Shown piece by piece: positions 4,843-61,104 of a stretch of 64,000 bases of DNA (positions are counted from its first letter, which is position 1; each line of letters begins with the position of its first letter). The DNA comes from Paraspadella gotoi (Eukaryota > Animalia > Chaetognatha). The notes beneath the pieces are model-generated. The model saw nothing but the letters and a program-made list of their open reading frames with translations. It did no database searches and had not been told where the DNA came from. A program made the position numbers and the translations under genes. The stretch is taken from the NCBI GenBank assembly GCA_051294375.1, contig CM119266.1, forward strand, positions 10,255,677 to 10,319,676, given 5' to 3'.

Positions 4843-22165
<17,323 letters not shown>

Positions 22166-30047: not shown

Positions 30048-30366
30048 ATGAGGCGCTTCCTTAGCCGTATGCTTCGGAAGCGCATGATGATTTCCGAGAC
30101 GGGAAACGCTTCCTTCTTTATCCAGTTTACCTGTTGCGTCCTTATCATCATCCACGCGAGCAGGTCCATAGTGCCTTATTCAGTGATGTCTAAAATTTTA
30201 TTCATTTTATATTCGTATTTATGTTTTATATTTTTACTTTAATTTGCGCCGCGAGTACTCTTATTCTTATTCAAATTGGCCTTATCTAAAATCTGTCCTC
30301 ACCACTGATCACTGTCCTTTCTCAATTCATTGTTGGAAACTCTAACCTTTCTCTTCTTCTTCTTCT

Positions 30367-30432
<66 letters not shown>

Positions 30433-31590
30433 AACTCAAAAATTGTATTCCAATTCACAATTGTCAAGTGCTGATGAAGGCTCGAAATTGTGAGCCGAAA
30501 CATGTCTGCTTTTTCACAAATAAAATTCGTTGTAAAAATATTCAAAAAACTTTACGAACTAATTTAAATTCATCATTTTTCGGGAATCTTTAAAAATGTT
30601 TAAAAATATTTAACAAATACGATATCTCCTCGAAAGTCGAGTCTCTTGTGCCGCAACTCTCTTTCTCCCTTCTTCCCCCCCCCCACTCTCTCTTTTTACT
30701 CTCAAGCATATTTCAAGACATCCATCGGACATTCATCAACTTTTACTACGTAGAAATAACTCTGTTGTTTTGGTTCACGGTCAAGTGTTTCCTGGGTTAC
30801 GTCGTCGACGGCCAGGAGATTCAATCCTTCGGCACCTCGCTCCGACACTACGTGTGCAAGGCTGGATTCGTGCTGAATATGATCTTCTACTTTCCTTGGT
30901 CGTCCGTCATCGGAAAGATTTTGATGAAGGTTAGCCGATCTTGTATTTATACTAAGGGCATGGTCGTGTTATGCTAAGCGGCGGCGCGGACGCAAAGTGA
31001 CGTAAGCCCTAGAATCTGGGATAAAGGACCCGGATACCGGATTGAACCCAAATTTCCATATTCGGCGGTTTATTCACACCGCCTCACATCCACCATCGTT
31101 CAGCCAATCAGCTAAGAGGGGGAATGCAACATCCCAGGCGTTAGGTTCATTCCACAGTCCTAACGACTTCTCTCTGCGTTGGCAAAGCGAGACCGTCCTA
31201 GGGTAATCGCGTCAGTGAAGCCAGTGAAGCCTCCGAAGCCAACAGTGAGATGCCCCACCCCAATGGGCATTACAGGCAACCCGGCCGTTGCCATACGTAC
31301 ATCAAATGCGAAGACAGTTTAATATCCTCGACGCTCCGTTCGTCAGTGATTGCATACACTCTTGCTCGTCTTTCCTTTCTTCCTTCTACATGACCCGTGG
31401 CGTGGTGGTCAACCGTCTGCGCGAACTCGGCGTCCTCGGGGACTTCTCCGTGCTCTCGTGGATCAAAGCCATCGCCATCATCCTCCTGATGAGTTATTGC
31501 GGCATCATGACGGAAATGTTCTCTACGCTCTTCTTTCAGACGATGTGGAAAATCGTCCAGCAATGCCCGTCTATCACTATGGAGAATAAG
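30048..31590 (+). CDS. Channel repeat I, S1-S5 exons (30048-30163, 30707-30929, 31276-31590)
   Basis: Hydrophobic helices plus CNG/KCNH-like S2-S3 motifs (KCFLGYVVDG...LRHYVCKAGFVLNMIFYFPW); phases 2,0,0. Confidence 0.75.
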
Positions 31591-32296
31591 GTTAGAGCCA
31601 GCTAAAAAAGGCGATAAAAAAAAATTCTAAAAAAAAATTTTCATGAATTTGGCAACTCCTGATAGAAAAAAATTAATTTATAAATAAATTTGGTTAAATT
31701 TTATAGCAGCTAGCAGCTTCATTTTCTCCTTGATGAGAAAGGCAAAAAAAATGTTGACAAAAAAATTTAACATTTTATTATTAATTTTACAATTTGTTAT
31801 TTTTCTTTTATTTCGTTGGTACAAATTTAAACAAGAAAAAAAATTGATTTTCACAACGGAAAAAAAAATTCGTTGTTTACAATTTAAATTATATGGTTAG
31901 TGTCATCTATAATTGTAGCCTAAGTTGCCTAACGCAAAAAGCTGTTATTGATATTAATATAATTTTTATTTTCAAAATAATATTCCTCGTCATTATTAAC
32001 TTTAGAATTCTTGATAAGAAACTTTCCCTGTGCCATATCGCTCATTCAAGCCCGCCAATACCTTACCTTCCCGACCCGACCTCCTAAACCGTCGACAGCG
32101 CCTGAACAACCTGAGCTTCCCGACGTCCGAGAAGCACCAGTGCCAATTTCCCTCGTTTCTCGAAATCTTCACGATGTCCGGCGTCCGATTTCTCCCGCGC
32201 GGCGACGCCAACGGCTCCTTTCGGTTCATCATTCCTCCGATCAGCGGGACGCAGTTAGAAAGAAGGCTCATTTTCAGGTACAACGGGAGCGTCGAT

Positions 32297-32335
<39 letters not shown>

Positions 32336-35300
32336 GTCAGTTTTGGCTTTTGGTTGGTTGGACTTTATTTCACTACTGGTGATAGATTTCAACAGGTCAG
32401 TCGTAAAAACCCAAGAATACTATTATTTTGTTTCTTTTAAAATTTGAATAACTGATAACGAATTTGACTAAATATAATTTTCCAGTGAAAAAACTGGATC
32501 TTTATCTTTATCTTTACTCCCAGTTGGGTAACGGAAATCGCAAGAGGAGTTGGTTACGGAAGAATTTGGCTGCCGCAACAGTCCGCTATGATATTTCACT
32601 TTCAATACGTAGTCATGGTATGATTTTGATTATTATTATGCTTATTTAATTATTTATTTATTTATTTCAATTATTGGCTCGTCTATTTATTTATTAATTT
32701 TTATTATCCGCAATCATGTATTCATTTTTTTCCGTCATTCAATTTATTCATAGCCTTAATTTATTCATTAGTAACACACTCCTGTGCAAAAAAAAAAAAG
32801 AAACGCGCCACTTTAGTAGTGTATAGTAATTGTACATATCTCCTTGTATTTGTTTATTGCCATTAAAATATAATCATGTACCCCTACATTCGATTAATTC
32901 ATTCAGATTTCCGGCGCCGTCTACTTCTTCGGAATCTTCCCCGGCCTCATTAACACCTTCGTTCTCGTCCTTCATCACACCAACGGTTTTTACGAAGATA
33001 AAAAGAAAAACTTTCGCCTCTACGTCCAACAGATGGAACCAGGTGAACGAATTCGTTCCTTCATTCTTTCTTTCGTTCGTTTAAATTGAATTTTAAGAAC
33101 TCTCTCTCTTTCTCTCTCTCTTTCTTTCTTTCTCTCTCTCTCACAGATAAGAAGAAGAGATCTGCGGAAATTCGAAGAGTCAACCATCACTTGCGTCATC
33201 TCTGTTGGCTTACTCTCCGCAATTACGTTGACATTGAAGGAGGTGTTCCTTCATTATTTTTACAAATACATATATAATTATTAGTACAATATAGTATTCC
33301 CCGATCTAATACTTAAGGGAGTGGTCTTTTCATACAATTGAAACATTCTTTGAAACATTATACCACTTCATTGATAGGGAAGCCAGGTTCCCTGGGAGTG
33401 AATAAACGAGACTGTGAGAGAGGGACTTGCTATGTCATTATCTTGTAAGAGCGATGGAGGCCTTAAACCACCAAAGCCTGTCCAAAGTCAGGGGCAAGAT
33501 AGCTTATTTATTAAATGAATGGATAATTTTTATATTGGTTGTTCCAATTTCATATATATATATTTATTTTAAATCGTCCCTCGATTACTTTGTCGCTTGC
33601 CCGGGAACATCTCCGGATCCTCAGGATTTTCCCAAGACAACCTCAAAGCCTCCGTGACGCAAGACTGGATCGCCAAGCGGGCCAGCACCCTCGCCAAGGC
33701 CTCGATATTTTTCAAGGGCGACTGTCGATCCACCGGCAGGTCCAAGATGACCCCCGCGGCGCAGCGGTTCGACCCTCGCGTGGTCGGCTTGCTTCACAAA
33801 AAGGTCTTTCTCGAGGGGGAGACGATCTTCGCTGCCGACGGACGCGCCTGCCCGTTCCTCTACTGGGTCACTGTAGGCAAGGTTGTGAAGGCGAGGGGTT
33901 TTTGTTTGTTTTTTTTTGGGGGGGGGGAAGTTTAGCGAGCATCATGAACCTTCTCGGCGTCGATTATAACGTTTATAGCAACCACAGTAACGACTCTAGG
34001 AACAATACTTTATTCAAAAATTATTCTTCACATTCAATCAATAAAAGATGATGAAGGAGCACCGCCGACTTAAAAATAGATTTTTATCAACGATCAGACA
34101 TTTTTCTTCGTGCGCACACACACACACACGCTCCCCCCCCCCCAAAAAAAAACCCCTTCAGGTGCGCCTCAACTTTCCCAACGGCTTCGTCAGCTACTTG
34201 ACCCCTGGTAGCATCTTCGGCGAAACCAATTTCACCGTCTCCTTCGTCCCGCCTTACGTCATCACCGCCGCCAGCGAAGCCACGCTGCTGACGCTTCGAC
34301 GATCCCACGTGGAGAGACTTCCAGGGATCAGAGAGCGGCTGATAAGTATACGGAAAGCAACCCTGGCGCGGCTGCTGGCGGCGGAGCGAGGGGAGGCTGA
34401 AATGAGGAAGGCGGGTGAGAGAATAGCAGAGCCCGTGGGGTAAAGGAGTAGGGAGGCAGCGGGGGGGGGTAATGAGAAGAGGATAAAGATGAGAGGGAGG
34501 AGCGAAAGTTGGGAGAAACCAGAGACAAGACTTAATATTAAACTTAAAGCATTCACAATCACAAACATTCACTTCCTGGAACCCTTTGGTAACGTAGTAT
34601 GTGGCTATGTATATTCTCACCGCCTCACATCCACCATCATTCAGCCAATCCCATTCACTCAGAGGGGGAACGCACCATCCCAAGTGTTGCGTTCCATCCA
34701 CAGTCCTCCCGACTTCCCTCTGTGTTGGCAAAGCGAGACCGATCCTAGGGGAACCCGGCCGTGGCCGAAAGTAACGACTTTTCTCTCTATCTCTCTCCAA
34801 CCAAAGGATCACGCCCCGGTGCCCCGTGGTAAACAATGTTAATCATAGTGTGGTGACAAACGACATACACTTCCAAATCCGCGGTTTAAGCCTCCACATC
34901 AATACTAAAGTTTAGACTGTATAAAATTACAGGGTTCGGAAGCAAAAACCTATAAAAAATTTATCTCCTGAACCGTTTTAAGGATATAAATAAAATTTAT
35001 ATAAAATGCTTTAAGACGCCCTACTTTGAGCTAATAAAAAGTCTGACATCTGTAGAGGATAAGGGTGAAAGGTCTAATGACTCCAAATAAAAATCTTATT
35101 CATTACTAAAATATTGTAACTGATAAGCTGCATTATAGCATGAGGCAGTATATCACTTTTTGAGCTTGGGTTATCATCTTGAGAACTGTTAACCTCTACC
35201 CAAGGGCCAAGGCTTTAAATTACACCGAAGTTTATATCAATTGGCTTCAGCACTTGTTTTATTTATCATAATAAAATTATTCTGTATGGCAACGGGGGGA

Positions 35301-38300
35301 CATGTGTGATGCCCGTGGTGAGGAACATCTCCCGACAGCTTGCGCTCTTGGTTTTGGACCTCCTGTGACCACCCCATGTTACCGGCGTATTTATGCCAAC
35401 ACCATCACACTTTAACCTGCGTGACCGTGAGGGTATTGAACCCGGCACTCACGGTTGGTGAACGAGTACTTAGCTGTCCAATCCAATGGGACGAGCAGAG
35501 TTTTATTAAGCTATACGGGAGGCGAATTTAGGATTCGCCACAACTGACCCATTTTTATATTATCTCTTGTCATTAGCCCAATCTTTGTGACATAACGAAA
35601 ATGTTTGGTATAGTAAGTTAAGTTTGCCCAGTGTCAATAATTTAATTTACTTTAATTTAATCAATGTCAAATCTATATTTGATTGATTTGGGCGAAAGGA
35701 TACTGGCTCACTGTGAACTTATTTTTTACCTTAAGTTAATAATATTTGGGTGAATGATAGCATAAACACTCTCATTTGAGCTCTTTTACGTTTTTATATT
35801 CGGCTAGAAAAAAAGAAGAGGATGGTCACATCGAGGCTGACGCTGACGCCTCGATGTCATCCGGTGGAGAGAGATTCCGTCGTAGATCTTGTGTGGCAGG
35901 GATTCGTCGCCCTCGTCGCTCTCTTCGCCAATGTGCTCTTCTTTGTCGACAACAATCACCCCACCTTCTTTTTCTGTCACGCCTTCTTCAATGTACGTTT
36001 CTAAATTTAAAATTTGTGATTAAAATGTATGTATATTTATTTATTGATACAGTGTGTCCCAATGGTTCTGTCGTTTAACTTTTAAATATTTTGCGGAACT
36101 GTGTTATTAAATATTATTTCTGAGATAACAATGTCAAAGATAAGTTCTTACCATTTATGATACTATATTTCGAATTCATTTTATATCAATTTTTCTTTGC
36201 AGAACACTCAATTTAAATGAGTCCTCATTTCTTACTTTTTTAATTTTTAGATATTTTTTTACTTTAAAATAAATTGTATTAAAAAAATTATGTAAAAAAA
36301 TATTTTAAATATATATAAATTATTTTAATTTTAATTTGTATAAAATAAGTGAATTAATAAAAAGAAATAAACAAATATTTAAAAAAATATAAAAATTTTT
36401 AAAAATTTTTAAAAATATGCTATAATTAATTTGATATTTAAATTTTATTATTTGAAGTTGTGAGCGATTGAATCATTCAGCTAGAACAAAATGGTTGCTA
36501 TTTATTCAATAAATTATTATTAAATCAATTATAAAAAGTAATATGAACAAGTAGATAATTTTAAAAATAAGGATTCCTGCATTGTAAAAGCTCTGGAGCT
36601 AAAAATATGAGGGTAGTTCTTACTGTCCTGTCTAAAGTAGGGTTCCGTTAACCGTTAATTTTTAAGGAAATTCGCTTAAACGTTAAAAGTAACGTTTTTA
36701 ACGGTTAACCGTTAAAATCGGTTAATTTTATAATTCAACTTTAAATTTAAAATACTAATATTTAAAACTAATTAAAGTATTTAATGGTATTTTCTTCCTT
36801 AACTCTGGCTCCTGAATCGTCTTTATCTTCTATTTCAGATGGATGAGGTACACATTATAGTTGATAAATGAGAAAATTGGTTTGAGAAAACTATCTTGAA
36901 TCTACCCATTAGCTAATCAAATAAACCATTATAATAAATCTTTCTTTACTCATAGCATATAAAATATGAAAAAAGACAATGAAATAAAAAGCACAATAAA
37001 ATTCTAATTCTGTATATTTTGTTTCTCTTTCTCCCTTTCTCTTTCTTTCTTTCGCTTTCACTTTTTCTATTTCTCTTCCTCATTATTTTTATAGTTGTTT
37101 AGTTTCTTGAAAGCATGTTTTCTGTTATTAGTCTTTCATAAACCATGACTATAATATAATTATGAATATTGTGTTAAGACTTTCTTTTCGTTGCTTTTTA
37201 TAGATAAAGTAAAAGCAAAGTTTATTTGTTTTACAAACGATGGGTTTTATTAAAAAAACGGACATGTTTCGACTCTCACGCGCTGATGTAGACTTGGAAA
37301 AACTAGAGTCGAAACATGTCCGTTTTTTGAATAAAAACCCGTTGTTTGTAAACAATTAAACTTTGTTTCTCTTAATTATGAATATCAATTTATTAATTGA
37401 ATGTGGAATGATCGATTGATCAAAAGAGTTATTAATTAATAAATATTTTTTTCAATTTTATGAAAGTATATCATCATTGAAAGATAGTTTTAGTTAGCCT
37501 TAATGTCTTTTCAAAGATTTATTCCTTCTATTGTTCATGTTTTAAATGTTTTCTAATAATTTTTTTTTTTAATTTATTCGGTTTTATTTTATTTACTTCT
37601 TTGTTCATTTTAAAAAGGAAAGAAAAAGTGAAAAAAAGTAAAATTATTTAAAGATTATTTATTTTTTTATTAGCAAAATAGAATATTATTGCATGTAAGA
37701 ATTTTATTTGCAAGAAAATATATGCAGATGCATATTATATTTCAAAATATTCTTTGATGTAAATGTATAAAATTAACTGAAAGGAAAAACGAAAACATTT
37801 AGAAGAAAGTAAGTAAAAAATACTGGAAGGTCCGAAAAAAACGATAAGAGATTAGGATAGAAAAAAGTTTAAAAGGTTTGAAAATAACAAAGGAAAAAAA
37901 AGGGAAAAAATGTAGAAGAGACAAGGGGAAAAATATAGGGAGAAAGGGAGAGGAGAATAAGAGAGGACAGGAAAAAAAACTTTTCTCTTAAAAAATCAAA
38001 GTTTTCCTAACAAAAAATAACAAAAATCGTACTTGAAAATTAACCGAATTTAACCGTTAAAATAAATATATTAACTGTTAACGGTTATCGGAACTTTAGT
38101 CTAAAGAAAAGATTTAAAACATTATTTAATCAATATTATAAAAAATATTTGATAATAAAAAATATATCATTTAAGAAAATTTTTAGAAGTATCTGCTTAC
38201 AGCAGATTCCAGCTCTATAATTCACTTTGTCGGTCTGTCGGTCCGCCCCCCAATCATGTCAGAACATCGAATTATGATAAATTATGCTAAAAAAATATTT

Positions 38301-41300
38301 GTCCGTCTGTCTGTCCGTCCGTCCCACCTTAGCAAAAAAAAAATTACTCGTGATTTGATAGATGGATTGAAATAAAATTTTGTGTGTGGGTACTGGGTAG
38401 GAAAGTATGTGATTGAGCTGGAAATCAAGTTTCGATGTAATCGTCCGAGTGGAAATGAATTAAAATGGAAAAAACAAAAAAAATATATTTCACTATTTGA
38501 ACACCAATTACTCATGAGTGAATGGTGCGATTGACTTCAAATTTAAAATGTCGGTAGGAAAGTGTGTGATTGAGCAGGAAATAAAGTTTTGATGGAATCG
38601 TCCAAGTGGAAATTAGTTGAAATAGAAAAAACAAACAATCTATTTCACTATTTCATTATGCTCTTTTTATTTTTATATTAAATGTAAATTCAAGCTGCAT
38701 TAATTAATTATTAATAAATAAGTAATTAAGTAATTATTAATTATTTGTAATTAATTAATTTGTTATTTTTCTTTCATTTCGTTGGTGTAAAAAGGGGGCC
38801 AGCTCACTTTGAGCTTCTTTCTTTAACTTTCTTCTTCACCTCACAAATTTCACTTTCCTTTCACCCATTAAACTATACAAAACTATCCTTTCATCCATTT
38901 TTAGTCTAAAATATTTTTATCGTTGAACATTTTGCAATGTAAATCCTAAATTATTACCTCTGTGTTGCCTTTTCTCCCTTGACCTTTAATTTTCTTTTCC
39001 CTCCTGTATTCTTCAATCTGACAAAACAAAAACAAAACAAAAATTCGTTGTGAAATTCAGTCTTTTCTATTTTTAATTAATTAATTAATTAATTAATTGT
39101 GTGATCGAGTTTGTTTTTTTGTAATTGAGAGGGGAGACAAAGTGGAAAACGATTTTGACACGAATAAAAAAATNNNNNNNNNNNNNNNNNNNNNNNNNGA
39201 AAATTAATTTATTATTATCGTGATCAGCTGCTTACCGCTAATGATCGTGGCAGATCCGGCATTGCTTGCTCAAAACTTGTTTTTTTACCAAATTACTTTA
39301 TGAAATTGGTAACAACCAATATAAAAATTATCCATTCATTTAATAAATAAGCTATCTTGCCCCTGACTTTGGACAGGCTTTGGTGGTTTAAGGCCTCCAT
39401 CACTCTTACAAGATAATGACATAGCAGGTCCTGCAAGCTTTCAATCAAGACTCTCTCACAGTCTCATTTATTCACTCCGCAGAGTCCTGGCTTCCCTATC
39501 AATGAAGTGGTATAATGATTCAAAGAGAATGTTTCAATTGTATGAAAAACCACTCCTTAAGTATTAGATCGGGAATACTTATTGTACTCCGCACTAGCAT
39601 CAAATACATAAGAGCTGAATTTTATGAAATTGGTACAAACCACAATATAAAAATTATTCATTCATTTAATAAATAAGCTATCTTGCCCCTGACTTTGGAC
39701 AGGCTTTGGTGGTTTAAGGCCTCCATCACTCTTTACAAGATAAATGACATAGCAGGTCCCTGCAAGCTTCAATCAAGACTCTCTCACAGTCTCGTTATAT
39801 TCTCACATCGAGAGTACCTGGCTTCCCTATCAATGTAATAACTACAGGAGTTTGCTTTGTTCAATTTTTTAAATTTAGGTATCCTATAAAATTATCCATA
39901 CTTGTGAGCATATTATATAATTGAATAGTTTTTCGATCTGGTACAGGAGCAGTAAGCTTTCTTACAGAGTCACCATTAGGGAGCACCTGTATCATTAGAA
40001 TTATAAATCTAGAAAATCTTAAATACCTTGTTTTACAATAAACTATTTTTTTTAATAAAATTTTATTTGCAAAATATAAATTTTTTGAAAATTATAATTA
40101 TTATTTATTTCTACACTTTACGTATATTACAAGATATTATATTAAGTTAAGTAGAACTCTGAGATAATACGGAATATTTTGTAAATAAAATTAACCTTCT
40201 TTGATGGTCATGGTGATTGCTGTTGTCTCTGATTTGTGTTACATGTTTTTGTTAGTGTAGTGAAGTATATCGCGTTTTCTCAGATCAAATACAGTTGGGT
40301 CTTCACGCTCTGTCGGTTTAACGTGTTGGTGATGGGGCTGGACTGCGCCGCAGATGCTTCTTCTACTACATCTGTCGGGCCACACTATCGCGGATCCTTG
40401 TGCTGTAGACTTTTCGCGTCTTTTATGCCGAATCTCAAAAGTGAGAACCTGAGAGGTTTTATTGTTGAGCCACGTCAAATATTATTATTATTATTATATT
40501 ATATATATTATGAAAGTGGTACAACCAATATAAAAATTATCTTCATTTAATAAATAAGCTTTGGACAGGATTTGGCTTTGGTGTTATTTTATTATTATTA
40601 TTATATATTATTTTATATTATTATTATTATTCATGGTGACAATTTACAAGCGCCGGTAGAAATACGCTGTCATTTGCAAACCAGTGGTTATTTAATTGAT
40701 TTTAAAAATTTGTTGAGTAGAATATATTAAAGTCATTTATGTGTTCAAAATTTTATATTGATCAGTTAAAGATATGCCTTGGCAATGAGTGAAGAAAGTT
40801 GGCTTGTTAAATCGGGTTTCATTTTCTAACTCACTTTTTAGATTCAATTTTTTTTCTTACTTTCAGTAAGTTTTCTGAAGAAATTTAAAATAAAATAATA
40901 TTAATATTATTATCTTCTGAAAGCCCTTTCAAATCTAAAGAGAATGATATATTTGCAAATACTGTAGTATAAAATTTAACCGGCCCAGCTTTAATTTAAT
41001 TAGGATACTCAAAAACAAGAATTCTTTCCAAAAATCAATAGCTGGAGGGTAAATTTAAGATTTTTATCAAATTGTGATTGGCTATCTTAAATCTCCTTTT
41101 TTCAGTTTTTTTCATGATACTTATATAAATAATAACATTTTATGTTATAATAATTTAATCAGGTCATATTTTTTAAAAAAAGATTTGAAATTTTAGATAA
41201 TTAACTTTTGACTCTTTTAATTGAACCAAGGCTGGGCAGCTTAATTTTTATGTTAGAGCTTTCGTAAGTATATCATTCTCTTCATTTTTTAAGGGCTTTC

Positions 41301-47300: not shown

Positions 47301-47474
47301 CTTTTTCGCGTCTTTTATGCCGAATCTCAAAAGTGAGAACCTGAGAGGTTTTATTGTTGAGCCACGTCAAATATTATTATTATTATTATATTATATATAT
47401 ATGAAAGTGGTACAACCAATATAAAAATTATCCATTCATTTAATAAATAAGCTTTGGACAGGATTTGGCTTTGG

Positions 47475-47525
<51 letters not shown>

Positions 47526-50500: not shown

Positions 50501-53500
50501 AAATTCAAAAGGGCATACAGCATTACAAGAAAAAAGAAGGGCTCATAATACTTTATTACTTTATTACTTTGTTTCTAAATAAATTTAAACGATTCAAAAT
50601 AAACAATTCAAAGAATTTTTTTAATATCTTTAATGGGATCTGATATGCACAATAGAGTGGAGCACTTCAGAACAAAAATTTGATTTGAGTCAATTAACAA
50701 TAACAATTTTATGCAAGATGGTATGATTATTGAATACAAAAAGTATTTTGTTAATCTTGTTTTGGAAACAGAAAAGCAAAATACAATATATTTATAGTAT
50801 TATCCTTAGACGAAATAACAATTTTTAAGTTTTTCACAACGAATTTTTATTTGTATAGTAGCAGACATGTTTCGAACGTGTATTTCGTTCTTCATCAGTG
50901 CTTTAACAGTATTATCCTTATGAAATAATAAATTTTTTAAAAAATGTTTTGAAATTTTTTTCAAAGATTCTGATTTCTTATAAAAAGTTAGACCAAAAAT
51001 ATAAAACATGTTTTTTTGTCTCTCTGTAGTAGAAACTATTAAATGATAAACTTTTTTGTCGTTTTTGCAGCTTTAACATTAAAATATTATATAACATATT
51101 TTAAAAAAGTTTCTTATTTTTTTCTAACGAATCTGAAACTGTTCTTCAAATTAAAATTACTATAAATAAAATAGAATTTGCTATACTGTTATGCTAAAAA
51201 AATTTTTTAAAGGATATGGTTTTCTTTAGTTACAATTTACACATACAGAGGCAGCAAAAAAATGTTGTTAACTCGCTTAATCATTTCATCACTCCACCTT
51301 AATGCCCAAGTCTAAGAAAAAAACCTATTATTCATCATATCCAAACTTTATTGAGAGAAAAGTAATTTCTAAACGATTTCAAAAAATGTTAACAGAGCTA
51401 TATTCTATATTTTAAAACATCATATGAATTTTGAATAATTATTTAAGCAATAATTTTTAAATAATCATTTAAAAAAGGCGCTGCAGTTTTTTGTTTATTT
51501 TTACACATCTATTTTCCGCTGCTCCCTTTTTTTATCATAAAAAATTGTAAAAAAGTCGAGACAACAATTTTCATTTCCAACATGGTCTCATGTTGAAAAT
51601 TTATTATTTCCTCAAAAAATGGAGTGCCTCCAACGTTTTTGGACCTGGTGAAATCTTAAACTGCATGGGCTATCTCACTGGACATGCCAAGCGGCACGTC
51701 AAAGCACGAACGTTTGTTCAAGTTTTGGTAATCACCTCATCAACTATTGACAAACTTCTGGCTGACAGTTCCAAGGCTTACAAGTATTTTCAACGGCTTG
51801 CCTTTCGAGCGTTGGAACTAGATTTTGCAACTGCAAAACAGGTCACCAATGATAAGCAAGAAAACGAGGAGGGCCGCACGATTCGGAATGTAAATTTAAG
51901 CGCATGTAAGCGCAGATGGTCATCGGAAAAGTGCGCCCTTTGGAAGTATGGCTTTCTTACAATGATACACTTTTTCAACATGATGATATGTTTACTATGG
52001 ATCGGTACTAAGGAATTGTACATATGCTTTGAAGAAACCTACGTGAAGGAATCAAGAACAGATACTGAGGAAAAATTCCTTGAAAATTTAGAAAGTAGGG
52101 TCAACACAATTAATTACATTAAGGTAATTACAGATGTAGTGACCATCACAACTGAATTTGTTTTTTTCTCCACACAAATATACTATACTAAAGAGGGAGT
52201 TTTTGTAGACCAATACCGATTTACGCTATACAATAGTTTTGTCAAGCAGCTTGTGCATTGGATGCTTGCCTGCATGCCTATGGAAAACATCTTTCCCCAT
52301 TTTCGTTACAGCCATATACTTGCACTTAACCGCCTAATGAGCTTTTGGCGAATGTATGCCTTCAAGCATTGGCTGCTTTACAGATTTCCCTCTCACATTA
52401 AGTTGATAAGTTTTGTCTGGGTTATTTGCCTCTATACTGTGTCACTGCACCTTTTCACCTGCATGATTCTGTTTGGGGCAGAGATAACGTGTGATCCAAA
52501 AGACGTTATAACATTGATGATTTGCAGAGATTATACTCAGGATGGTGTGAAGCTTTTTCCTTCCGTCCATTCGCACAAATATGCGGAAGTGTCCAAACAA
52601 CTGGACACCGTTCCATTCAAAAATCCAACATTTCTAAATTCCTCCGACTGTTGGATGCCAGACAGAAGTGCGGAAAGTCCACAAGCTTGCCAAGCCTTGT
52701 ATCAGAAGTTCAAGCGTCGGTATTGGACTTTTACCATGAAGGCCCCTTACTTTGGCGAGGATCGCCGCTGGTGTGTCGCTGTGTTGAAAAATGGCACAAT
52801 TGCTCAACTCTACCTCACTTGCCTTTACTATGTGACTCAGACAATTACCATGACGGGATTCGGGGATTTCACTATCTACAGCCAAAGTCAATTTATATTC
52901 TTTGCCTTTCTTATCGTCATATCCTTCTTCCTCAATTCTTACATGAGCGTCCACTTTTTGGCCCCACATTTGGAGGATAATAAGGCACTCGAGGATCATC
53001 GGGACAAGATGGCCCGGCAGCTTCAATACTTGAAGGATAAAAATGTGCCAGACTACTTGGCATCAGCCCTCAGCAACTACGTTAACACTACCTTTCTCAA
53101 CATCTCTTCCTTGGAACAATTTGTTTGTGAAGCTCCAGATCTGCTTCTGCGCGAGTTAAAGTATTTGGCTTTTCACAAAACTCTACGACGGAGCCGCCTG
53201 TTTCAGCAAGAGCCAGACTCTCACGACGACCTCATCGTAATGCTATCGGAGATCATGCACCCGCTCTACCTGCCACAAAACGCATCGGTGATTCGTAGAG
53301 GCGACGTTGCCGATATGATTTACCTCCTGGGCAAAGGCAGCCTGAGAAAGGAGAAGCGTTCCACGGACGCGAGTGTCTTTTCAGAGGATTCCGACGAAAT
53401 ATTCGGCGACTTGGAAGAAGGTCTGTCCTTTTGGACGTGGACGGTGACGACGACAACGCCAGCGTTTTTTCTCGTTGTATCCAAGGTCCACGTCTTGCAG

Positions 53501-56500
53501 ATTCTCCACAAATATCCAGTGGCTAAACGCACTCTCAAAATGCTGTTCAGCTCGCTGCCCGACTATTGCTGCCATGCCCATCATTCACGATCGAATAACT
53601 CGGCGGGAACTGTCGGGGAACCGAAATTCGACTTTGGGAGCATCTTTCAATACTCGGATTATCTTGAGTCAAGCGGCCACTCTCTCAGCTTGGATACCAC
53701 TAAGTCTTCGGGCTACGTGCTGACGGGAAAGTCTACGAAAGATCACGTGGACTTGGTATGGAAATTCAATTGTGGTTCTCATAAAAAATTTAAAAAAATA
53801 AATGGTGACGTTTGTTTTTTTTTTCCGGGTGCCTTTTTTGATTAGGATTCGGAGGATAACGTAACGGCGTCAAGATTAGTTCCCAGGGAACCAACGACAA
53901 AGGAGCCAAACCGTGGCCTCCACGAAGACACGAAGGCCGCCACGTTGCACAGCTTTCACGCAGGGATTAAAATGATTGATCGATCGTTTGATAAATTGGC
54001 CGATTGATTGTTTTATTGGTCGAATTGAAAAGACGATGCTCTTATCTTATTAAATCATTAATCCATGCGCGATGCTTTCACACTTAACAGGCGACGTCAA
54101 ACGTCAGGCGACTACGAAAGAGACTTTCGCCAAAGCCCACGCGGCGCATCCTGCCGCCGGCCCCGACATCGCCGCGTCCCGCTGCCGAACTCTCTCGCCA
54201 ACCAAATATAAGCTTCGCGTTTTCCTCATCTTTGCCGCGCTTCTCAAGTTGAAGCAGATGCAACTCTGCATCTTCCAGATCTTGCACGTGCAATCGCTGC
54301 ACGATCCATTCATCAACCACATATACTTTCTCGACCTCGTCTTTCTCGCGGAAATCATTATCCGGTTTTGTTATAAACAACAAAGTTTTGAATTGTTAAT
54401 TTCAAGAATACAGTCGTGTTCATTGATACAATGACGTTCATCGTTTACCTTCTTTTTTTTAACGCAAATTTATATTGTGTGTTTTCTTTCTCTTTTGTTG
54501 CCTTTTGAGATTTAAAGATTATTAAGTTGCGATTTGGAAACGATAATTGAATTTTTATTTTACAAAAAAAAAAATGTTCCGAAGCCGAAACGTGCTTGAA
54601 TTTTTTTTATTATCGTTGTCGAATCGCGTTTAAAAACTTTTCTGAAATACAATATTAAATTCACTGTCCGCCCAGATTCCGCATGGGATTTTTCGACGTC
54701 AAAACGGGAGAGATGGTGATGACGCCGTCGAGGATTCGGCGTCACTACGCGTCGCCGCGCAACATCCTCAGCTCTGACGGCGGATTCTTACTCGATCTTG
54801 TCAGCATCGCTCCGTTCCATATCGCCCTCAGATTCATCAAATTCCGTTGGCGCCACGAGCTCGTCGCCGGGCTCTTCGTCGCGCAGATGCTTCCGTGGTG
54901 TTTGAAGGGTGAGTTGGGGAAAGGTGTTTGTTACAATTACGTACATTTAAATACATTTATTAAAGAACTTATACATAAAAAGGTATCTTCTGAAAGCTCT
55001 TAAAAATTTGAAGAGAATGATATATTTAAGAATATTGTAACATAAAAATAAGCCTAACCAGCTTTAATTTAATTGAGGTTATCAAAATTGAAATAATGAA
55101 ATTCTCAAATTTATTTTTTAAAATATCTGAACTATTTAAATTATTATGATTGTTTGGCAATAATAATATAATAATAATTTAATAATTATTCCAAACATGC
55201 TCTTTAGCAATTTTTAATTTAATGGTTATCTTAGTTTTTATTACCTTTGTAAATTTTTTTTATGCGATTTTTACTGATTGTTAAACGCTGACGAAGGCTT
55301 GAAATAGCAAGCCGAAACATGTCAATCTCTTAAAAATAAAAATCGTTGTACAAATTTTAAAGCTTTCTCTAAGTTTTTTAAAAAAATGTTGAGAAAGTTA
55401 GACAAACAAATTTAAAAAAAAAAAATTTGAGTTTTAAAATGAAAGACGATTTTTAAGGCAACTTTTCTCCGTTCATTGCCAAGTCAAATCATAACCAATC
55501 AATATGAAATTAGGATATATAAATGACTTTTTACTACAGAAAAAAAACTTTCAGATTAAAGAGATCTTCAAAGGTTTGCAAATGACGATTTTTTTTTTTC
55601 TAGCGGCGGGTTGCGGTGTGACACCTTGTAAATCTTGCCATTAAAAGATTATCCTTCCAATTCTATCATTTAAGGCCACATCCGTTCATGTTCATGCCTT
55701 CGTCTCTCTCCCTCAAAACCTTTTCCAACCCCCGCACCCCCGTCATCTCCAAGTGGTCCGCGCCCTCGTTTTTCTCGAGATCTTCGCCGCCACCCGCGCT
55801 TCCAAATGGGTCTACCACCACGCGGGCACGCGCATTCTCAAACTGCGACGTCTTCACTCGATCGTCCGCCACGGTGTGATCCTGATGGGGCCGACGCTGC
55901 TCTGCGTGGAGATTTGGTGCCTGACGGGCTGCTCGATCATGGACTTGCCCAACCCGACTCGATGCCCCAAGGGCTCGTGGATGATTCAAAGGCTGAGTTT
56001 CTCCGGCGACGGACGCCCCGGAAATTTCAGTGGAGGTTTCAATCTCGTTTTCTCATTAATTTTTATTATTGTTTACATTAAATGTAGGATTAGAGTGAAA
56101 CTCGTTTTAGTACGAATACAGTACTTTTTTTTATTATCTTTTGTGCATTTTATTCCATTTACCTCTCTCAAGGAATGCCCTTTCCATTGCAAAAAACATA
56201 TTTGTAAAGCAAGCTTGCCGTTGAACAATAAGCGTCCCTAAACCCCCATAAAGGCTGTTCGCGGCATTTTTTTTTTCGTTCTTTTTTATGTTTGCTTATT
56301 AAGTAGTTAATAATAATGGTTGAAATTATCACAAAACTTCTTCCCTTGTTCTTTTAACGTCATCTCATGCACAGTTTGTAACTTTGTATAATATAAAGTC
56401 AGGGGCAAGATAGCTTATTTATTAAATAAATGGATAATTTTTATATTGGTTGTACCAATTTCATAATATATATATTTATAATATTAATAAAAATAATAAT

Positions 56501-58348
56501 TAATATAATATAGTATGAAAATTTTCAAATTACTTGTTTCACTATTTTCTATTTTTATATTTTATGAAGGATTTAGTATATAATCTATATTATTTAAAAA
56601 TATATATTTTGCTTTCTTTCTTTAAAAAATTTTTTTACTTATCATTATATCTAATAACTCAATTTGGGAAGAGGAAATCAGTGTTGTCTTCTTAAAATAG
56701 CGGGAGCATCTATACAACAAGGTTAGATTACAATATGTTCTAGTTTTCTAATAGATATCACACATCATTTCTGTTAGAAAGTAATTAATGAAAAATCATA
56801 ATATCTAAGAGGCTGAACAGAAAGGGGTGGGAATGGATAATTTTTTGAGGGGGGACCAAAGTTATATATGATTTTTTTTACCAATAGGGATAAGACTACC
56901 ATGTAGAATTGTATGTTCTGATAGGGATACATACTGGGGAAAGGTCTATAGGGGCACCTCTATGTCATGAATAGAATTTTAATTTAATTTAATTTTTTTA
57001 TCCTACTTTTTATTTATTTCTTTTTTGAATATTTTTTATATTTTATGTTTATACAATGGGAAAGTCATCAGTTGGGAACCTATACCCTTCATGGATTTCG
57101 GCTCTTTATCAATATCCAGGTATAGGCGAGCCATCACCAAATGGTGATCCCTCATAGTTAATTTTTATATAATTTGAAGAATTTAATTTTGAAAAATTAA
57201 TTTTTAGATTTTAATTTTGAGAAATTAATATTAAGAAATAAATTTTGAGAAATTAATCCTAATATCGAGGTATAGGCGAGCTATCACTAAATGGTGTTCC
57301 CTCTGTTATTAGTTATATAATTTTGAGTATTTAATTTTGAAAAATTAATTTTGAGAATTTAATTTTGAAAAATTAATTTTGAAAATTTAATTTTGCAAAA
57401 TTAATTTTGAGAATTTAATTTTGAAAAATTCAGTATAATATAATGACGGCACAGCAGTGGACCTGGGGAGGGGCTCAATGAAGACTGGGAGCCTACGTTA
57501 AAACTGACGCGTGGAACTGTGTCTTTAATGACGTGTGAAGGGGTGGGTTCTTCTGACCACTTTAAGGTCATTTAGTCTTAAGCCTCTTCATTTTTATTGT
57601 GTCTCTCTCTCATTATTTCTTTCTTTGTAAAAGTTTTGCTTGTTAACTCTCTCATTTCCACTGAAGATGACATAAAAACATATGCCGAAATATATGGAAA
57701 ATTTATAATTTTCTCTTTTTTTTTCTGAACTGTACTCCATTATGAAATTGAACGTTTTCATCCTTGTTCTTTTGTTTGGCAGCAAATAATCCGATTGGCC
57801 ACGTCTCGGACACTGTGTATCTCTATTACGAAAGCTTTTACTTCGTCCTCAACGTGTTGACGGCGACGGGGATCGGGGACATCCACCCCGGCACCGCCTT
57901 GGAGATGCGAGTCGGGATATTTATGATGTTGGGTCTCAGGTCGGCGCCCCAGAGTTTTTTGTAATGGGTGTTCTATATTGTATGTTCTGAAGAGACAGTA
58001 ATTATTGTTATGTGTTAGTGACAGAACCGTTCAATATAAGCAATCCCTGAGCTTCGGATCAGGCTGTAACACCGTGTTACAGGCGGGTTAAGCGCCCCGT
58101 CCCTCTTAACTGCTAGGCGGCCACCGGGCTATTACCACGGACCTTTGGGTGGGGAGGCGAATGACTTGCCTCCGGCACCAATGGCCACTGATGAACGGTT
58201 GGTGGATTTTAGTCCACCATAGTTCTATGAAATTGTTACAACCAATATATTATATATTGGGTCCTCGTTGTCTTTGTAGTTGTCGTTTTCGTTTGAACTA
58301 TTTGAGGTTCCAAAATAAAATTATTGTCGCCGGCTTTTAAAATTTGAA

Positions 58349-58414
<66 letters not shown>

Positions 58415-60080
58415 TCGACCATAGGATTGTGAATATTTCTTCATCAATTTCCCTCATTTGATTTTTTCCCTCAAGATTGATCGCCATGAACGTCTTGAGT
58501 AAAATAATCACCACGACGATGGCCGCGGCGTTGCGATCGTTCAAAAACAAAAAAAGTAAATAGTAGTTAAAAAAAAGTCGATTCTTTAGCGGCTTCAACA
58601 GACGACGACGACGACGACGACGTCCACTCCGACCAAGACGATCGAATAAACTATTCTCTTTTTCTCTATCAACTATAAACTTCTAAATATATATTCTCTT
58701 TGTAGCGGAGTATAAAATACTACCGCTACATCATAATATTTAACCTCGCTGAACGTTTCAAAGGCTGTAAATATTATTTTTAATTCAATTTTTTTATTTC
58801 ATTTTGTATATTTTTTTAAACAAACAGTTCTCGCAGCGCTATGGGTTTTCAACAAATGCAACGTCAGCAAACAAATAATGGTAAGCGCCAAATTTTTACT
58901 TTATTTTTCAATGAGATTAGCGCTACAGTACTAGTTGTGCCTCTACCTATTACCTAATGATAATTTAAACTCAAAACAGAAAAAGTTCATTCACGACCAA
59001 CGATATCGTCGCAGCTACTACAGCAGCAACACGCTGCAGTCTCTGGTGACCAATTGCGTGCACCTGGCGACGCTGCGCGAGGACATATGCTTCTGCGTCT
59101 GCGAACCGTTCCTGCGGCGCCTGCGCATCCTCCACGGGCTCCCGCTTGGCGTCGTCAAGCTCATCAGCATCTGCGTCCTCGAGGAGCTGCACGACTTGGA
59201 CGCCATCGTCATCGAAGAGGGCGCTCTCGTGGACAGCGTCCTCTACGTGGTCAGAGGATTCGCCGAGACGTTCACTCTGGGCCGAAAGGGGAAGAGAAGG
59301 ATACTGTCGGAGGGCGACCTTTGGGGGGTCGACAACTTCGAAGGTTTGAAATAGGAGGGGAACTCTAAAGATGCCGGACGTTGTAATGATGATCATTGTA
59401 ATGAAGATGTCTAACATCTTAAATTTAACTATTATTCCCCATTTTCTTACTTTCAATTAAGTTAGACTTTTGCTCGCAAACGACGACGACGACGAATATA
59501 AACCAGTTTAATGGGTCAGTTCATGCTTGACATTTAAATACGAAAAAAATTTGGTTAGCTCGAATGGCTTGAGTCACCAAAAACGTACATTTTAACTGAT
59601 GCATGAATCTGAAAAGATTCCTTCTTTTGGAGTAAACTTTTTGAATAAAGATCAAACTGCATGTTGTGCCACAGTGACTTTCTTCTGTGGACGCATTTCC
59701 AGATGATTACGTGACTATGCAATACAATACTAAACTATACAATATAGTATACATACATGTATACAAATACAAACTTAATTGATGCTGTTCTACCAAAGTT
59801 GAAAGCAATTAAAACGTCAGTGCGTCAGACCGATGGACAAACAGACACAGACTGGCCGCCCATACCGAAAAGCGACTTACTACAGACTTCCTCCGCGGCG
59901 CAACTAAAAAACGAAAACCTTACATTGGTTTGTTTTTACTTTTTAGGGCGACGTTTGCGGGCGAACGAGACGCTGGTCGCCGGACAAAAGTTGGTCGTTT
60001 ATCGGTTGAGTTCCTCTTCGGTGATCAACTATTTGGAGGGACGCTTGGACATTTACAGCTCGGCTTTGGGACGACTCTAG
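30048..60080 (+). CDS. Four-repeat cyclic-nucleotide-binding-domain K+ channel (CNGK / tetraKCNG-like), ~2,350-2,390 aa, ~23 exons
   Basis: Exons: 30048-30163, 30707-30929, 31276-31590, 32099-32297, 32341-32395, 32524-32617, 32907-33042, 33147-33242, 33625-33881, 34162-34414, 35808-35992, 47170-47332, 48606-49809, 51625-53755, 53846-~53963, 54091-54364, 54676-54908, 55754-56035, 57783-57939, 58476-58555, 58828-58880, 58980-59343, 59947-60080. All are phase-compatible (one donor uncertain). The product has four successive TM bundles, four pore loops (GVGYG, TVGYT, TGFGD, TGIGD), four C-linkers and four CNBD beta-rolls. Confidence 0.85.
30466..30511 (+). ncRNA. Minimal type I hammerhead ribozyme motif
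   Basis: aagtg-CTGATGA-a-GGCTC-gaaattgt-GAGCC-GAAA-CATGTC-tgctt: intact core, 5-bp helix II, palindromic CATG helix III, GUC cleavage triplet, helix I with wobble pairs. Confidence 0.75.
31071..31203. repeat. Dispersed intronic repeat (second copy at 34612-34750)
   Basis: ccgcctcacatccaccatc...cagccaatc...ttggcaaagcgagaccg...cctaggg is shared by both loci. Confidence 0.8.
32099..33242 (+). CDS. Channel repeat I turret, pore, S6 and C-linker exons
   Basis: Exon 32524-32617 encodes WVTEIARGVGYGRIWLPQQSAMIFHFQYVVM (GYG filter) and is not in the ORF track in this frame. It is followed by S6 ISGAVYFFGIFPGLINTF and C-linker YEDKKKNFRLYVQQM. Confidence 0.8.
33283..33554. repeat. ~270-bp dispersed repeat family (inverted copies 39299-39588 and 39623-39835; end fragments near 40510, 47401, 56395, 58226)
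   Basis: ...ggaggccttaaaccaccaaagcctgtccaaagtcaggggcaagatagcttatttattaaatgaatggataatttttatattggttg..ccaatttcata; the end usually abuts TA-rich tracts. Confidence 0.85.
33625..34414 (+). CDS. Channel CNBD 1 exons (33625-33881, 34162-34414)
   Basis: KKVFLEGETIFAADG...FLYWVTVGK|VRLNF...YLTPGSIFGETNF...VITAASEATLLTLRRS, a CNBD beta-roll. Confidence 0.88.
35290..35497 (-). mobile_element. Possible tRNA-derived SINE fragment
   Basis: B-box GGTTCAATACC on the minus strand (35432-35442) enclosed by a ccgtgag/ctcacgg stem; weak A-box upstream; no full cloverleaf. Confidence 0.35.
35808..35992 (+). CDS. Channel repeat II S1 exon
   Basis: ctag|AA...TTC AAT|gtacgt; encodes DSVVDLVWQGFVALVALFANVLFF, a typical S1 start. 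Confidence 0.8.
36638..38098. mobile_element. Non-autonomous hAT-type DNA transposon, 1461 bp
   Basis: Ends TAGGGTTCCG...CGGAACTTTA with subterminal TTAACCG/CGGTTAA repeats; perfect 8-bp TSD GTCTAAAG at 36630-36637 and 38099-38106. Confidence 0.85.
37226..37355 (+). ncRNA. Long palindrome enclosing a hammerhead-like motif (Penelope-like inverted pLTR remnant)
   Basis: Arms acaaacgatgggttttattaaaaaaacggacatgtttcgactc / gagtcgaaacatgtccgttttttgaataaaaacccgttgtttgt. The core CTGATG(t)a-GACT..AGTC-GAAA-CATGTC at 37283-37320 has one core mismatch. Confidence 0.6.
38188..38655 (-). mobile_element. Second copy of the DINE-1/Helentron-like repeat (see 430-995)
   Basis: Reverse complement similarity including a GTCY tract at about 38300-38325, ATCTGCT-tac-AGCAGAT hairpin and duplicated internal unit. 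Confidence 0.55.
40632..41587. mobile_element. Foldback MITE (duplicate of 47525-48480)
   Basis: CATGGTGACAA...TTGTCACCATG long terminal inverted repeats. Confidence 0.8.
43963..44005 (-). ncRNA. Minimal type I hammerhead ribozyme motif (duplicate of 50860-50902)
   Basis: Identical to the 50860-50902 motif; lies within the 6.9-kb duplicate. Confidence 0.7.
47170..47332 (+). CDS. Channel repeat II S2-S3 exon
   Basis: ttttctcag|ATC AAA TAC ... CTC AAA A|gtgaga; phase 0 in and phase 1 out, matching both neighbours. Confidence 0.7.
47525..48480. mobile_element. Foldback MITE, 956 bp, TA-flanked (Tc1/mariner-type target), ~370-bp TIRs
   Basis: ta|CATGGTGACAATTTTACAAGCGCCGGTAGAAATACGCTGTCATTTGCAAACC...GGTTTGCAAATGACAGCGTATTTCTACCGGCGCTTGTAAAATTGTCACCATG|ta. 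A diverged relative lies at about 54985-55642. Confidence 0.88.
48606..49809 (+). CDS. Channel repeat II S5-pore-S6-C-linker-CNBD2 (first half), 1.2-kb exon
   Basis: 401-aa ORF; pore DYLLDMFFYLSGATTVGYTS; CNBD LTVVPGFHLFFKGDLLRDIMVIIDGYVEY; cccag| and AG|gtagat splice sites. Confidence 0.88.
50860..50902 (-). ncRNA. Minimal type I hammerhead ribozyme motif
   Basis: Minus strand: AGCA-CTGATGA-a-GAACG-aaataca-CGTTC-GAAA-CATGTC-TGCT; perfect helix I and II, intact core, followed by the family tail acaaataaaaattcgttgt. Confidence 0.8.
51625..53755 (+). CDS. Channel CNBD2 end plus entire repeat III (S1-S6, pore TMTGFGD, C-linker, CNBD3), 2.1-kb exon
   Basis: 751-aa ORF with LNRL S4, LYLTCLYYVTQTITMTGFGDF pore, YLKDKNVPDYL C-linker and VIRRGDVADMIYLLGKG...IFGD CNBD. 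Confidence 0.93.
53846..60080 (+). CDS. Channel repeat IV exons through the stop codon
   Basis: LDLVFLAEIIIR|FRMGFFDVKTGEMVMTPSRIRRHY...FLLDLVSIAPF (classic KCNH/CNG S2-S3); pore YYESFYFVLNVLTATGIGDIHP; CNBD4 VIEEGALVDSVLYVVRG...LSEGDLWG; TAG at 60078-60080. Confidence 0.85.
55288..55327 (+). ncRNA. Minimal type I hammerhead ribozyme motif (weak helix I)
   Basis: CTGACGA-a-GGCTTG-aaatag-CAAGCC-GAAA-CATGTC followed by the family tail aaaataaaaatcgttgt. Confidence 0.65.
56514..56719. repeat. Dispersed repeat shared with the insert at 13646-13849
   Basis: tatgaaa...aattacttgtttcactatttt...gaaggatttagtat...tttgggaag...tcagtgttgtcttct...gcatctatacaaca is present at both loci. Confidence 0.8.
57110..57430. 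repeat. Compound tandem repeat
   Basis: Two copies of aatatcnaggtataggcgagcnatcacnaaatggtgntccctc, each followed by tandem AATTTTGAAAAATT-like ~14-mers. Confidence 0.8.
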
Positions 60081-60786: not shown

Positions 60787-61104
60787 TCACTGTCCCAAAA
60801 CCGTCTCCGTCTCGCTCGTCGCCTTCGACTCCGTCTCGGTCTCGCTGTCGTCTCCCGTTTCTTTCGCCGAGCCGTCTAGGTTCTCCTTCGCTTCGTCCGA
60901 CGCCGACTCCTTTGGCGTCTCTCTCGGCGCCTTTTTTGGCGCCACTTTGGGCGATGCGTCGCTCCCGCTCTTACGACGCCGCGATTCGTCGGCGGCGACG
61001 TCGAGCTTCAACTGTTGCTGCTGCGTCGCCTTGGCGTCGACCTTGCGTCTGGCCGGCGCCCGCATGCAGAGCATCGCGTCGTATTCGGCAATGATGTCCG
61101 ACAT
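60787..61104 (-). CDS. Probable terminal coding exon of an unidentified gene convergent with the channel gene
   Basis: Polypyrimidine tract plus ccag| acceptor at 61105-61106; GC3-rich 105-codon frame (MSDIIAEYDAML...charged low-complexity tail) ending in TGA. No upstream exons recognised in the window. Confidence 0.6.
   Translation of the reverse strand: MSDIIAEYDAMLCMRAPARRKVDAKATQQQQLKLDVAADESRRRKSGSDASPKVAPKKAPRETPKESASDEAKENLDGSAKETGDDSETETESKATSETETVLGQ

What the first reader, a model, noticed from the sequence alone, without database searches (positions are those of the whole stretch)
30048..60080. Hidden four-repeat (24-TM, 4-CNBD) CNGK/tetraKCNG-type channel, extremely divergent
Seen: ~23 phase-compatible exons, several invisible in the ORF track, splice into one ~2,370-aa frame with four consecutive S1-S6/pore/C-linker/CNBD units. 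Known: this pseudo-tetrameric architecture is that of sperm CNGK (tetraKCNG) channels of sea urchin and zebrafish; ordinary CNG/HCN/KCNH subunits have a single unit. Inference: this is a fast-evolving lineage-specific CNGK, or an independent concatenation, that automated annotation would likely split into fragments.
Basis: partly seen in the sequence, partly recalled or inferred. Interest (0 to 1): 0.85.

Follow-up and report, generated by a model that had tools for sequence, protein, structure and literature searches.

The report
Heavily remodelled four-in-one ion channel
An invertebrate gene, three quarters of it spliced in one RNA contig, links four channel units into one predicted protein that likely descends from the sperm potassium channel CNGK, but its altered pore and nucleotide-binding residues and very large outer loops suggest it is likely opened by a different signal.

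Summary
The gene is real. A 22-exon model gives a protein of about 2,350 aa. One spliced contig covers the last 12 exons (1,730 aa: most of repeat II, then III and IV). The first 10 exons are predicted only, and the exon 2-3 joint is unresolved. A 6.9-kb frameshifted duplicate inside the locus is most likely an assembly error.

Custom profiles detect 4 of 4 CNBDs, 3 of 4 pores and 3 of 4 voltage sensors; repeat II's membrane part rests on motif and hydropathy. Against repeat-specific profiles of animal CNGKs the four units match in order I-II-III-IV (best of 24 orders, in 8 of 8 jackknifes). This favours descent from CNGK over independent concatenation; an AU test prefers it but rejects nothing.

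It departs from CNGK: 0 of 4 complete K+ filter signatures, 0 of 4 intact nucleotide-binding cassettes, and outer loops of 106, 155, 122 and 61 aa (about 40 in homologues). The repeat III loop and its four cysteines are conserved in orthologues. It is likely not cGMP-gated. Tissue and function are untested. This scan noted a similar degenerate four-repeat channel earlier in another genome.

The parts
30048..60080 (+). Whole gene, 22-exon model, about 2,350 aa, four channel repeats
30048..30163 (+). Exon 1 (predicted; alternative donor 30187): start, S1 of repeat I
   Evidence: no RNA joint
30707..30967 (+). Exon 2 (predicted; donor 30929, 30942 or 30967): S2-S3 of repeat I
31347..31590 (+). 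Exon 3 (predicted; start 31347 or about 31390, unresolved): S4-S5 of repeat I
32051..32277 (+). Exon 4 (predicted; alternative acceptor 32099): outer loop of repeat I
32524..32617 (+). Exon 5 (predicted): pore of repeat I, filter GVGYG at 32546-32560
32907..34414 (+). Exons 6-9 (predicted: 32907-33042, 33147-33242, 33625-33881, 34162-34414): S6, C-linker, CNBD of repeat I
35808..35992 (+). Exon 10 (predicted): S1 of repeat II
39836..46749 (+). Frameshifted tandem copy of 46745-53652, likely an assembly artefact; not part of the gene model
47170..47332 (+). Exon 11: S2-S3 of repeat II
   Evidence: RNA-type contig
48606..49809 (+). Exon 12: short S4, S5, 155-aa outer loop (48719-49183), filter TVGYT (49202-49216), S6, C-linker and first part of CNBD II
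51625..53755 (+). Exon 13: end of CNBD II and all of repeat III (122-aa outer loop 52463-52828, filter MTGFG 52850-52864, CNBD III)
53846..53963 (+). Exon 14: III-IV linker; followed by a GG..AG intron (53964-54090)
54091..56035 (+). Exons 15-17 (54091-54364, 54676-54908, 55754-56035): S1-S5 of repeat IV
57783..57939 (+). Exon 18: pore of repeat IV, filter ATGIG at 57863-57877
58476..60080 (+). Exons 19-22 (58476-58555, 58828-58880, 58980-59343, 59947-60080 stop): S6, C-linker, CNBD IV; the contig continues past the stop

Best explanation
This is one spliced gene whose predicted ~2,350-aa protein carries four linked cyclic-nucleotide-channel units, likely inherited in order from the animal sperm channel CNGK and likely folding alone into one pseudo-tetrameric pore that is probably no longer opened by cGMP or cAMP. 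Shown: splicing of repeats II (most), III and IV into one frame; four CNBD folds by profile; the CNG-type fold of repeat III (model). Inferred: the four pore loops meet at one axis and still conduct, with K+ preferred but selectivity lowered, because no unit keeps the full [T/S]xG[Y/F]G signature. The CNBDs act as structural gating rings, not nucleotide sensors. Gating has moved to another input, most likely intracellular pH as in zebrafish CNGK, possibly tuned by the enlarged cysteine-bearing outer loops. By family precedent only, it sets sperm membrane voltage upstream of Ca2+ entry.
For: One contig spans 11 joints, 1,730 aa. The II-III fusion lies inside one exon and recurs in orthologue fragments P0002, P0153, P0010, P0016. 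Register: I->R1 29.1, II->R2 26.3, III->R3 97.7, IV->R4 101.4 bits, each the best of four animal profiles; the in-order sum ranks 1 of 24 and stays first in 8 of 8 jackknifes, cut and uncut. The in-register constrained tree has the best likelihood of 6. Repeat III model pLDDT 76.6, Foldseek to CNGA1/B1 E 7e-17. Filters 0 of 4 canonical, versus 59 of 79 homologue units and 27 of 32 in the animal clade. Gly-Glu plus Arg cassette 0 of 4, versus 33 of 76, with at least one in 7 of 8 animal-clade proteins. The Arg-to-Trp change in CNBD III is shared by P0002, P0003, P0020, P0022. Orthologues are 37-40% identical over exon 13, and 6 of 9 coding differences in run X5 are synonymous (p 0.005-0.054 by the assumed expectation). 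Zebrafish CNGK is pH-gated and nucleotide-insensitive (PMC4749565, Discussion read).
Against: AU does not reject a separate clade of the four units (p 0.11), a place outside CNGK (p 0.10) or shifted registers (p 0.08, 0.14). In the free trees unit I fell among R4 rows and branches are 4-10 substitutions per site; in the large FastTree unit III joined a plant-type channel. Three of the protist four-repeat profiles score units I or II as high as the animal ones (30.7 and 27.5 vs 29.1; 27.9 vs 26.3). In 6 of 16 jackknife runs one unit preferred another repeat. Homologues were found with repeat III as query, which biases the set. An Arg lies one residue from the cassette column in IV and two residues from it in II (kept in 4 of 4 orthologue pieces), so binding is not excluded. 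7 of 20 four-repeat homologues also have no intact cassette and 1 of 20 has no intact filter, so degeneration is not unique. Tissue, ion selectivity and pH gating were not measured.
Confidence: 0.6

Rival explanations
1. A CNGK orthologue that works like the sea-urchin channel: K+-selective and opened by a cyclic nucleotide at one remaining site; the divergence is tolerated drift.
For: Sea-urchin CNGK needs only one working CNBD (PMC4749565). GYG or GFG cores persist in units I and III, Thr before the first Gly in III and IV as in marine CNGKs. Nearby Arg residues in CNBD II and IV. PMC7576140 (passage) warns that selectivity cannot be read from sequence.
Against: No CNBD has both Gly-Glu and the Arg. 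Repeat III, the working site in sea urchin, has Trp in that column in every orthologue piece that covers it. The third Gly is lost in filter II.
Confidence: 0.15
2. The central pore no longer conducts; the protein is a scaffold or sensor, or conducts through a voltage-sensor path as HCNL1 does.
For: All four filters deviate; S4 is short or charge-poor, most clearly in repeat II. HCNL1 is a precedent in sperm (PMC7306766, passages).
Against: Pore helix, two filter Gly (3 of 4 units) and S6 remain recognisable, and TGFG is conserved in P0002 and P0003, unlike the unconserved HCNL1 filter.
Confidence: 0.12
3. An independent four-fold concatenation of a single-unit CNBD channel in this lineage, converging on CNGK architecture.
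For: AU cannot reject a clade of the four units. Other eukaryotes have separate tandem channels (PMC7576140). A single-unit profile scores unit III highest (178 bits), though that set was chosen by likeness to unit III.
Against: The units are less alike to each other (9-13%) than to animal CNGK repeats (13-17.5%). In-order match ranks 1 of 24. That tree is 20.8 log units worse.
Confidence: 0.08
4. Repeat I belongs to a separate upstream gene, or the locus is decaying, and the four-unit protein is a modelling product.
For: No RNA joints for exons 1-10; the exon 2-3 joint is awkward; a long gap with an assembly break lies between exons 10 and 11.
Against: The contig has 1,894 nt upstream of exon 11, which begins inside repeat II, and the predicted 5' exons fill 1,869-1,893 nt with compatible phases. 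Unit I matches CNGK repeat 1 best in 16 of 16 jackknife runs.
Confidence: 0.05

Closest known systems
CNGK / tetraKCNG of sea urchin, Ciona, amphioxus, cnidarians (PMC4749565, PMC8835908; passages read)
   Same: One chain with four S1-S6/pore/C-linker/CNBD units; repeat order matches; Thr before the filter Gly in two units.
   Different: About 15-17% identity to animal CNGK repeats versus 30-36% among them. No complete K+ signature, no intact nucleotide cassette. Outer loops of 61-155 aa and unequal, whereas PMC6259924 (passage) states CNGKs lack asymmetric turret extensions.
Zebrafish CNGK (PMC4749565)
   Same: Four-repeat CNGK; precedent for loss of nucleotide gating.
   Different: The zebrafish channel keeps GYG/GFG filters and mostly canonical CNBDs. 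No zebrafish sequence was compared here.
Degenerate four-repeat protein P0035 (unnamed) and beetle fragments P0074, P0087 (Holotrichia oblita)
   Same: Animal CNGK clade; P0035 has 1 of 4 intact filters and 0 of 4 cassettes.
   Different: Far less diverged (Pfam finds 4 CNBD and 3 Ion_trans stretches in P0035). Kinship with this gene is unsupported (FastTree 0.5-0.7).
Nav/Cav/NALCN four-domain channels
   Same: One-chain pseudo-tetramer with unequal cysteine-bearing turrets and an asymmetric filter (PMC6259924, passage).
   Different: Analogy only: this protein has CNBDs and a K+-channel-type pore.
Single-unit CNG, HCN, KCNH, plant AKT/KAT channels
   Same: Fold of one unit (Foldseek).
   Different: One unit per chain; no solved four-repeat CNGK among the 60 rows shown.

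Membership tests
CNGK/tetraKCNG | Four 6TM-CNBD units in one polypeptide | tested here: met
   4 CNBDs by profile; II-III-IV joined in one contig; unit I joined by prediction and contig length only; membrane part of II not detected by profile
CNGK/tetraKCNG | Descent from the animal CNGK clade with repeats in register | tested here: inconclusive
   Profiles favour it (rank 1 of 24, 8 of 8 jackknifes); best tree, but AU rejects no alternative
CNGK/tetraKCNG | Canonical GYG/GFG K+ signature in the pore loops | tested here: not met
   GVGYG, TVGYT, MTGFG, ATGIG: 2 of 4 keep the GYG/GFG core, 0 of 4 the full signature
CNGK/tetraKCNG | At least one CNBD with intact binding cassette (Gly-Glu and Arg) | tested here: not met
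   0 of 4; alignment is within 1-2 residues of an Arg in II and IV
CNGK/tetraKCNG | Short, near-equal extracellular loops (pseudo-symmetry) | tested here: not met
   106, 155, 122, 61 aa versus medians 36-42, range 14-109, in 77 homologue units
CNGK/tetraKCNG | K+-selective current; cGMP or pH gating | not testable with these tools
   needs electrophysiology
CNGK/tetraKCNG | Testis or sperm expression | not testable with these tools
   spliced contig shows a transcript, but the tissue of X6/X7 is not on record
Single-unit CNG/HCN/KCNH | One unit per polypeptide | tested here: not met
   at least three units in one RNA-supported frame

The most novel reading that the evidence does not exclude
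A CNGK lineage has been rebuilt into a channel gated from outside the cell. All four nucleotide sites are dead, the filter is asymmetric and passes cations broadly, and the large disulfide-bonded outer loops of repeats I-III form a receptor cap: a K+-channel scaffold converging on Nav/Cav-style asymmetry.
Probability: 0.15. Interest if true: 0.85.

Novelty: new variant of a known kind. Interest (0 to 1): 0.52.

Why it matters
CNGK has been described as a pseudo-symmetric channel with no specialisation among its four domains (PMC6259924, passage). This gene shows strong asymmetry in filter, nucleotide pockets and outer loops, and the repeat III changes are conserved in orthologues. It is a natural test of what chaining four subunits allows, and of how sperm-type channels swap their gating signal. 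It also shows that standard profiles miss such genes, so reported absences of CNGK may be wrong in fast-evolving lineages.

Tried and rejected
No whole genome is held, so copy number and partner genes (guanylyl cyclase, SLC9C1, CatSper) were not examined. No listed run is on record as RNA; X6 and X7 proved spliced when laid, but share depth and coordinates and are counted as one data set. Word-index searches found 1 remote hit for exon 13 and none for exon 12. The AlphaFold model of exon 12 was poor (pLDDT 61, pTM 0.33) and its fold search gave only helical hairpins at Z up to 6.8: no information. The mixture-model 'careful' tree did not finish in two runs; the quick tree and an LG+F+G4 AU test with 5,000 replicates (below the advised 10,000) were used. 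The turret could not be searched in the Atlas. My first reading of exon 4 as the pore of repeat I was dropped when exon 5 with GVGYG was found. The motif censuses (filter; cassette) had index errors and were redone. The host lineage was not resolved: neighbouring FBXL16 has its best named hits in spiralians, but sits on a long unsupported branch. The tandem copy was rejected as a real paralogue. Paper searches (listings only, seven papers read in passages) showed no description of a CNGK with enlarged turrets or four degenerate filters; subscription papers and supplements were not seen.
Full report
Setting. The window is eukaryotic, about 38% GC and rich in microsatellites. A neighbouring minus-strand gene is FBXL16. 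Its best named hits are brachiopod, mollusc and annelid proteins at 61-71% on one exon, but in a 208-column tree it is a long branch without support. The host is a bilaterian invertebrate, possibly spiralian; no closer placement is claimed.

A false duplication. Self-comparison shows 39836-46749 repeated at 46745-53652, 97.7% identical. The copies differ by 103 indels and 23 substitutions; 89 indels are one base and 67 of these sit in homopolymer context; 41 indels fall in the exon copies. In DNA runs X1 and X5 (both possibly sources of this assembly) unbroken contigs of 1.1-2.6 kb cover the second copy, two of them cross its end at 53652, and none of the rows shown has an indel in the exons. 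The first copy lies 640 bases after a 25-N gap, and the two other 25-N gaps also have local duplicates. The gene has four units using only the second copy.

Gene model. Contig 17 of run X6 (8,294 nt; run X7 gives the same joints and similar depth and is counted as the same data) skips 11 introns between 47170 and 60300. Ten are GT..AG; one is GG..AG. The 12 exons sum to 5,413 nt, the contig span, and give one 1,730-aa frame ending at 60080. This covers repeat II from S2, then III and IV. The II-III boundary lies inside one 2.1-kb exon. Ten upstream exons were predicted from splice signals and phase, including a 94-nt exon with the pore of repeat I. They fill 1,869-1,893 of the 1,894 upstream nucleotides. 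The exon 2-3 joint has three candidates: canonical but long, one needing a missing base, one needing a GT..AC intron. Profile scores differ by 2-5 bits and disagree on the winner. Total: 22 exons, 2,353 aa. A contig is not proof of one molecule, but in-frame splicing across unit boundaries makes separate genes unlikely.

Domains. Pfam on 17 channel exon ORFs passes its cut-off only for CNBD III and pore IV. Profiles built from 80 units of 20 four-repeat homologues find 4 CNBDs (11-28 bits; shuffled maximum 3.7), 3 pores (3.6, 33.6, 28.4; maximum 1.9) and 3 voltage sensors (6.9, 7.6, 30.8; maximum 5.8). Repeat II's pore is seen only as a weak alignment with a TVGY motif between two hydrophobic helices. 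Its S3-to-S5 stretch is about 17 residues shorter than in repeat III, across an RNA-supported joint, so S4 is reduced. AlphaFold models repeat III with S1-S6, pore, C-linker and CNBD (pLDDT 76.6; outer loop mostly under 50), closest to CNGA1/B1. The Atlas returns CNBD channels, including a 1,933-aa cluster.

Ancestry. A search with exon 13 returned orthologue fragments (P0002, P0003, 39-42%) and then four-repeat proteins: named ones from a crinoid, amphioxus, a nemertean, a barnacle, coral and two protists. Eight complete proteins formed an animal-type clade. With a profile for each of their repeats, each unit of this gene scored best on the matching repeat, and the true order ranked first of 24 (254.5 vs 220.0 bits). 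It stayed first in all 8 leave-one-out sets, with loops cut or uncut; in 6 of those 16 runs one unit preferred another repeat, most often II preferring IV, its known sister (PMC7576140 passage). Held-out proteins also ranked first in 8 of 8. In trees the units do not group together, II nests in R2 (SH-aLRT 96), and the others are weakly placed. The in-register constraint had the best likelihood; alternatives were 19-25 log units worse, KH p 0.04-0.09, AU p 0.08-0.14 (33 rows, 440 columns). Descent from CNGK is likely (my estimate about 85-90%), not proven.

What changed. Filters read GVGYG, TVGYT, MTGFG, ATGIG: none has the full signature, against 27 of 32 animal-clade units. No CNBD has both Gly-Glu and the cassette Arg, against 18 of 31 animal-clade units; the Arg is called crucial for binding in PMC4749565. 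In CNBD III, the working site in sea urchin, Trp takes that column here and in four orthologue pieces. The S5-to-pore loops are 106, 155, 122 and 61 aa with 2, 6, 6 and 3 Cys and N-glycosylation sequons (anchors chosen by motif; loop I rests on predicted exons). Only 1 of 77 homologue loops exceeds 100 aa. In P0002 and P0003 the repeat III loop keeps its length, four Cys and a sequon, so it is maintained. Against uniqueness: 7 of 20 homologues also lack any intact cassette, and P0035 shows milder decay of the same kind.

Mechanism. From established channel structure, four linked units assemble one pore without partners. Loss of the signature Thr in three units and of a filter Gly in the fourth predicts weaker K+ selectivity (my knowledge of K+ and HCN filters; PMC7576140 cautions that sequence alone does not fix selectivity). 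Degenerate cassettes predict no nucleotide gating. The nearest precedent is the pH-gated zebrafish CNGK, so I commit to a non-nucleotide-gated, K+-preferring channel, likely in sperm (0.6). A conserved ORF, 37-40% identical orthologues and 6 synonymous of 9 coding differences in X5 (weak) argue against a pseudogene.

Verdict. The observation mostly holds. By descent it is likely a CNGK; by defining residues it fails three membership features, so it is filed as a new variant derived from CNGK, not a plain member. CNGK in marine invertebrates is known (PMC4749565, PMC6660944, passages), and this scan noted a comparable degenerate channel elsewhere. The enlarged conserved outer loops are the new element. 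Interest 0.52.

Noticed in passing
window 53964-54090: Intron with GG..AG ends, fixed by contig coordinates; DNA contigs of X1 and X5 show no other letter at the donor in the rows listed. FlyBase lists 0 GG-AG introns in Drosophila (PMC4528330, table passage).
   Followed up: partly
window 51625: RNA-supported acceptor without a pyrimidine tract (A-rich, ending GGAG).
   Followed up: no
window 4847-8350, minus strand: FBXL16 orthologue, three exons found, with an insert of about 19 aa in the second; used for lineage placement.
   Followed up: partly
window 10094-10516 and 12761-15567: Local duplicates beside the other two 25-N gaps, suggesting more gap-fill artefacts in this assembly.
   Followed up: no
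window 60790-61120, minus strand: Charged, low-complexity ORF with no Pfam hit; the channel contig runs 987 nt past 60300 and may overlap it.
   Followed up: no
window 48606-49809 and 51625-53755: Repeats II-III lie mostly in two very large exons with lower GC3 (0.52-0.56) than most small exons (about 0.6-0.8); orthologue fragments share the large exon 13.
   Followed up: partly
window 48915-48960: Asp-Tyr repeat tract inside the outer loop of repeat II, making it strongly acidic.
   Followed up: no
window 21539-22228, minus strand: Ala/Ser/His-rich ORF resembling a transcription-factor low-complexity region; no significant Pfam hit.
   Followed up: no
P0074, P0087: Two beetle proteins annotated as CNG subunit A group with repeats 1 and 3 of four-repeat P0035: possibly a split insect CNGK.
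   Followed up: partly
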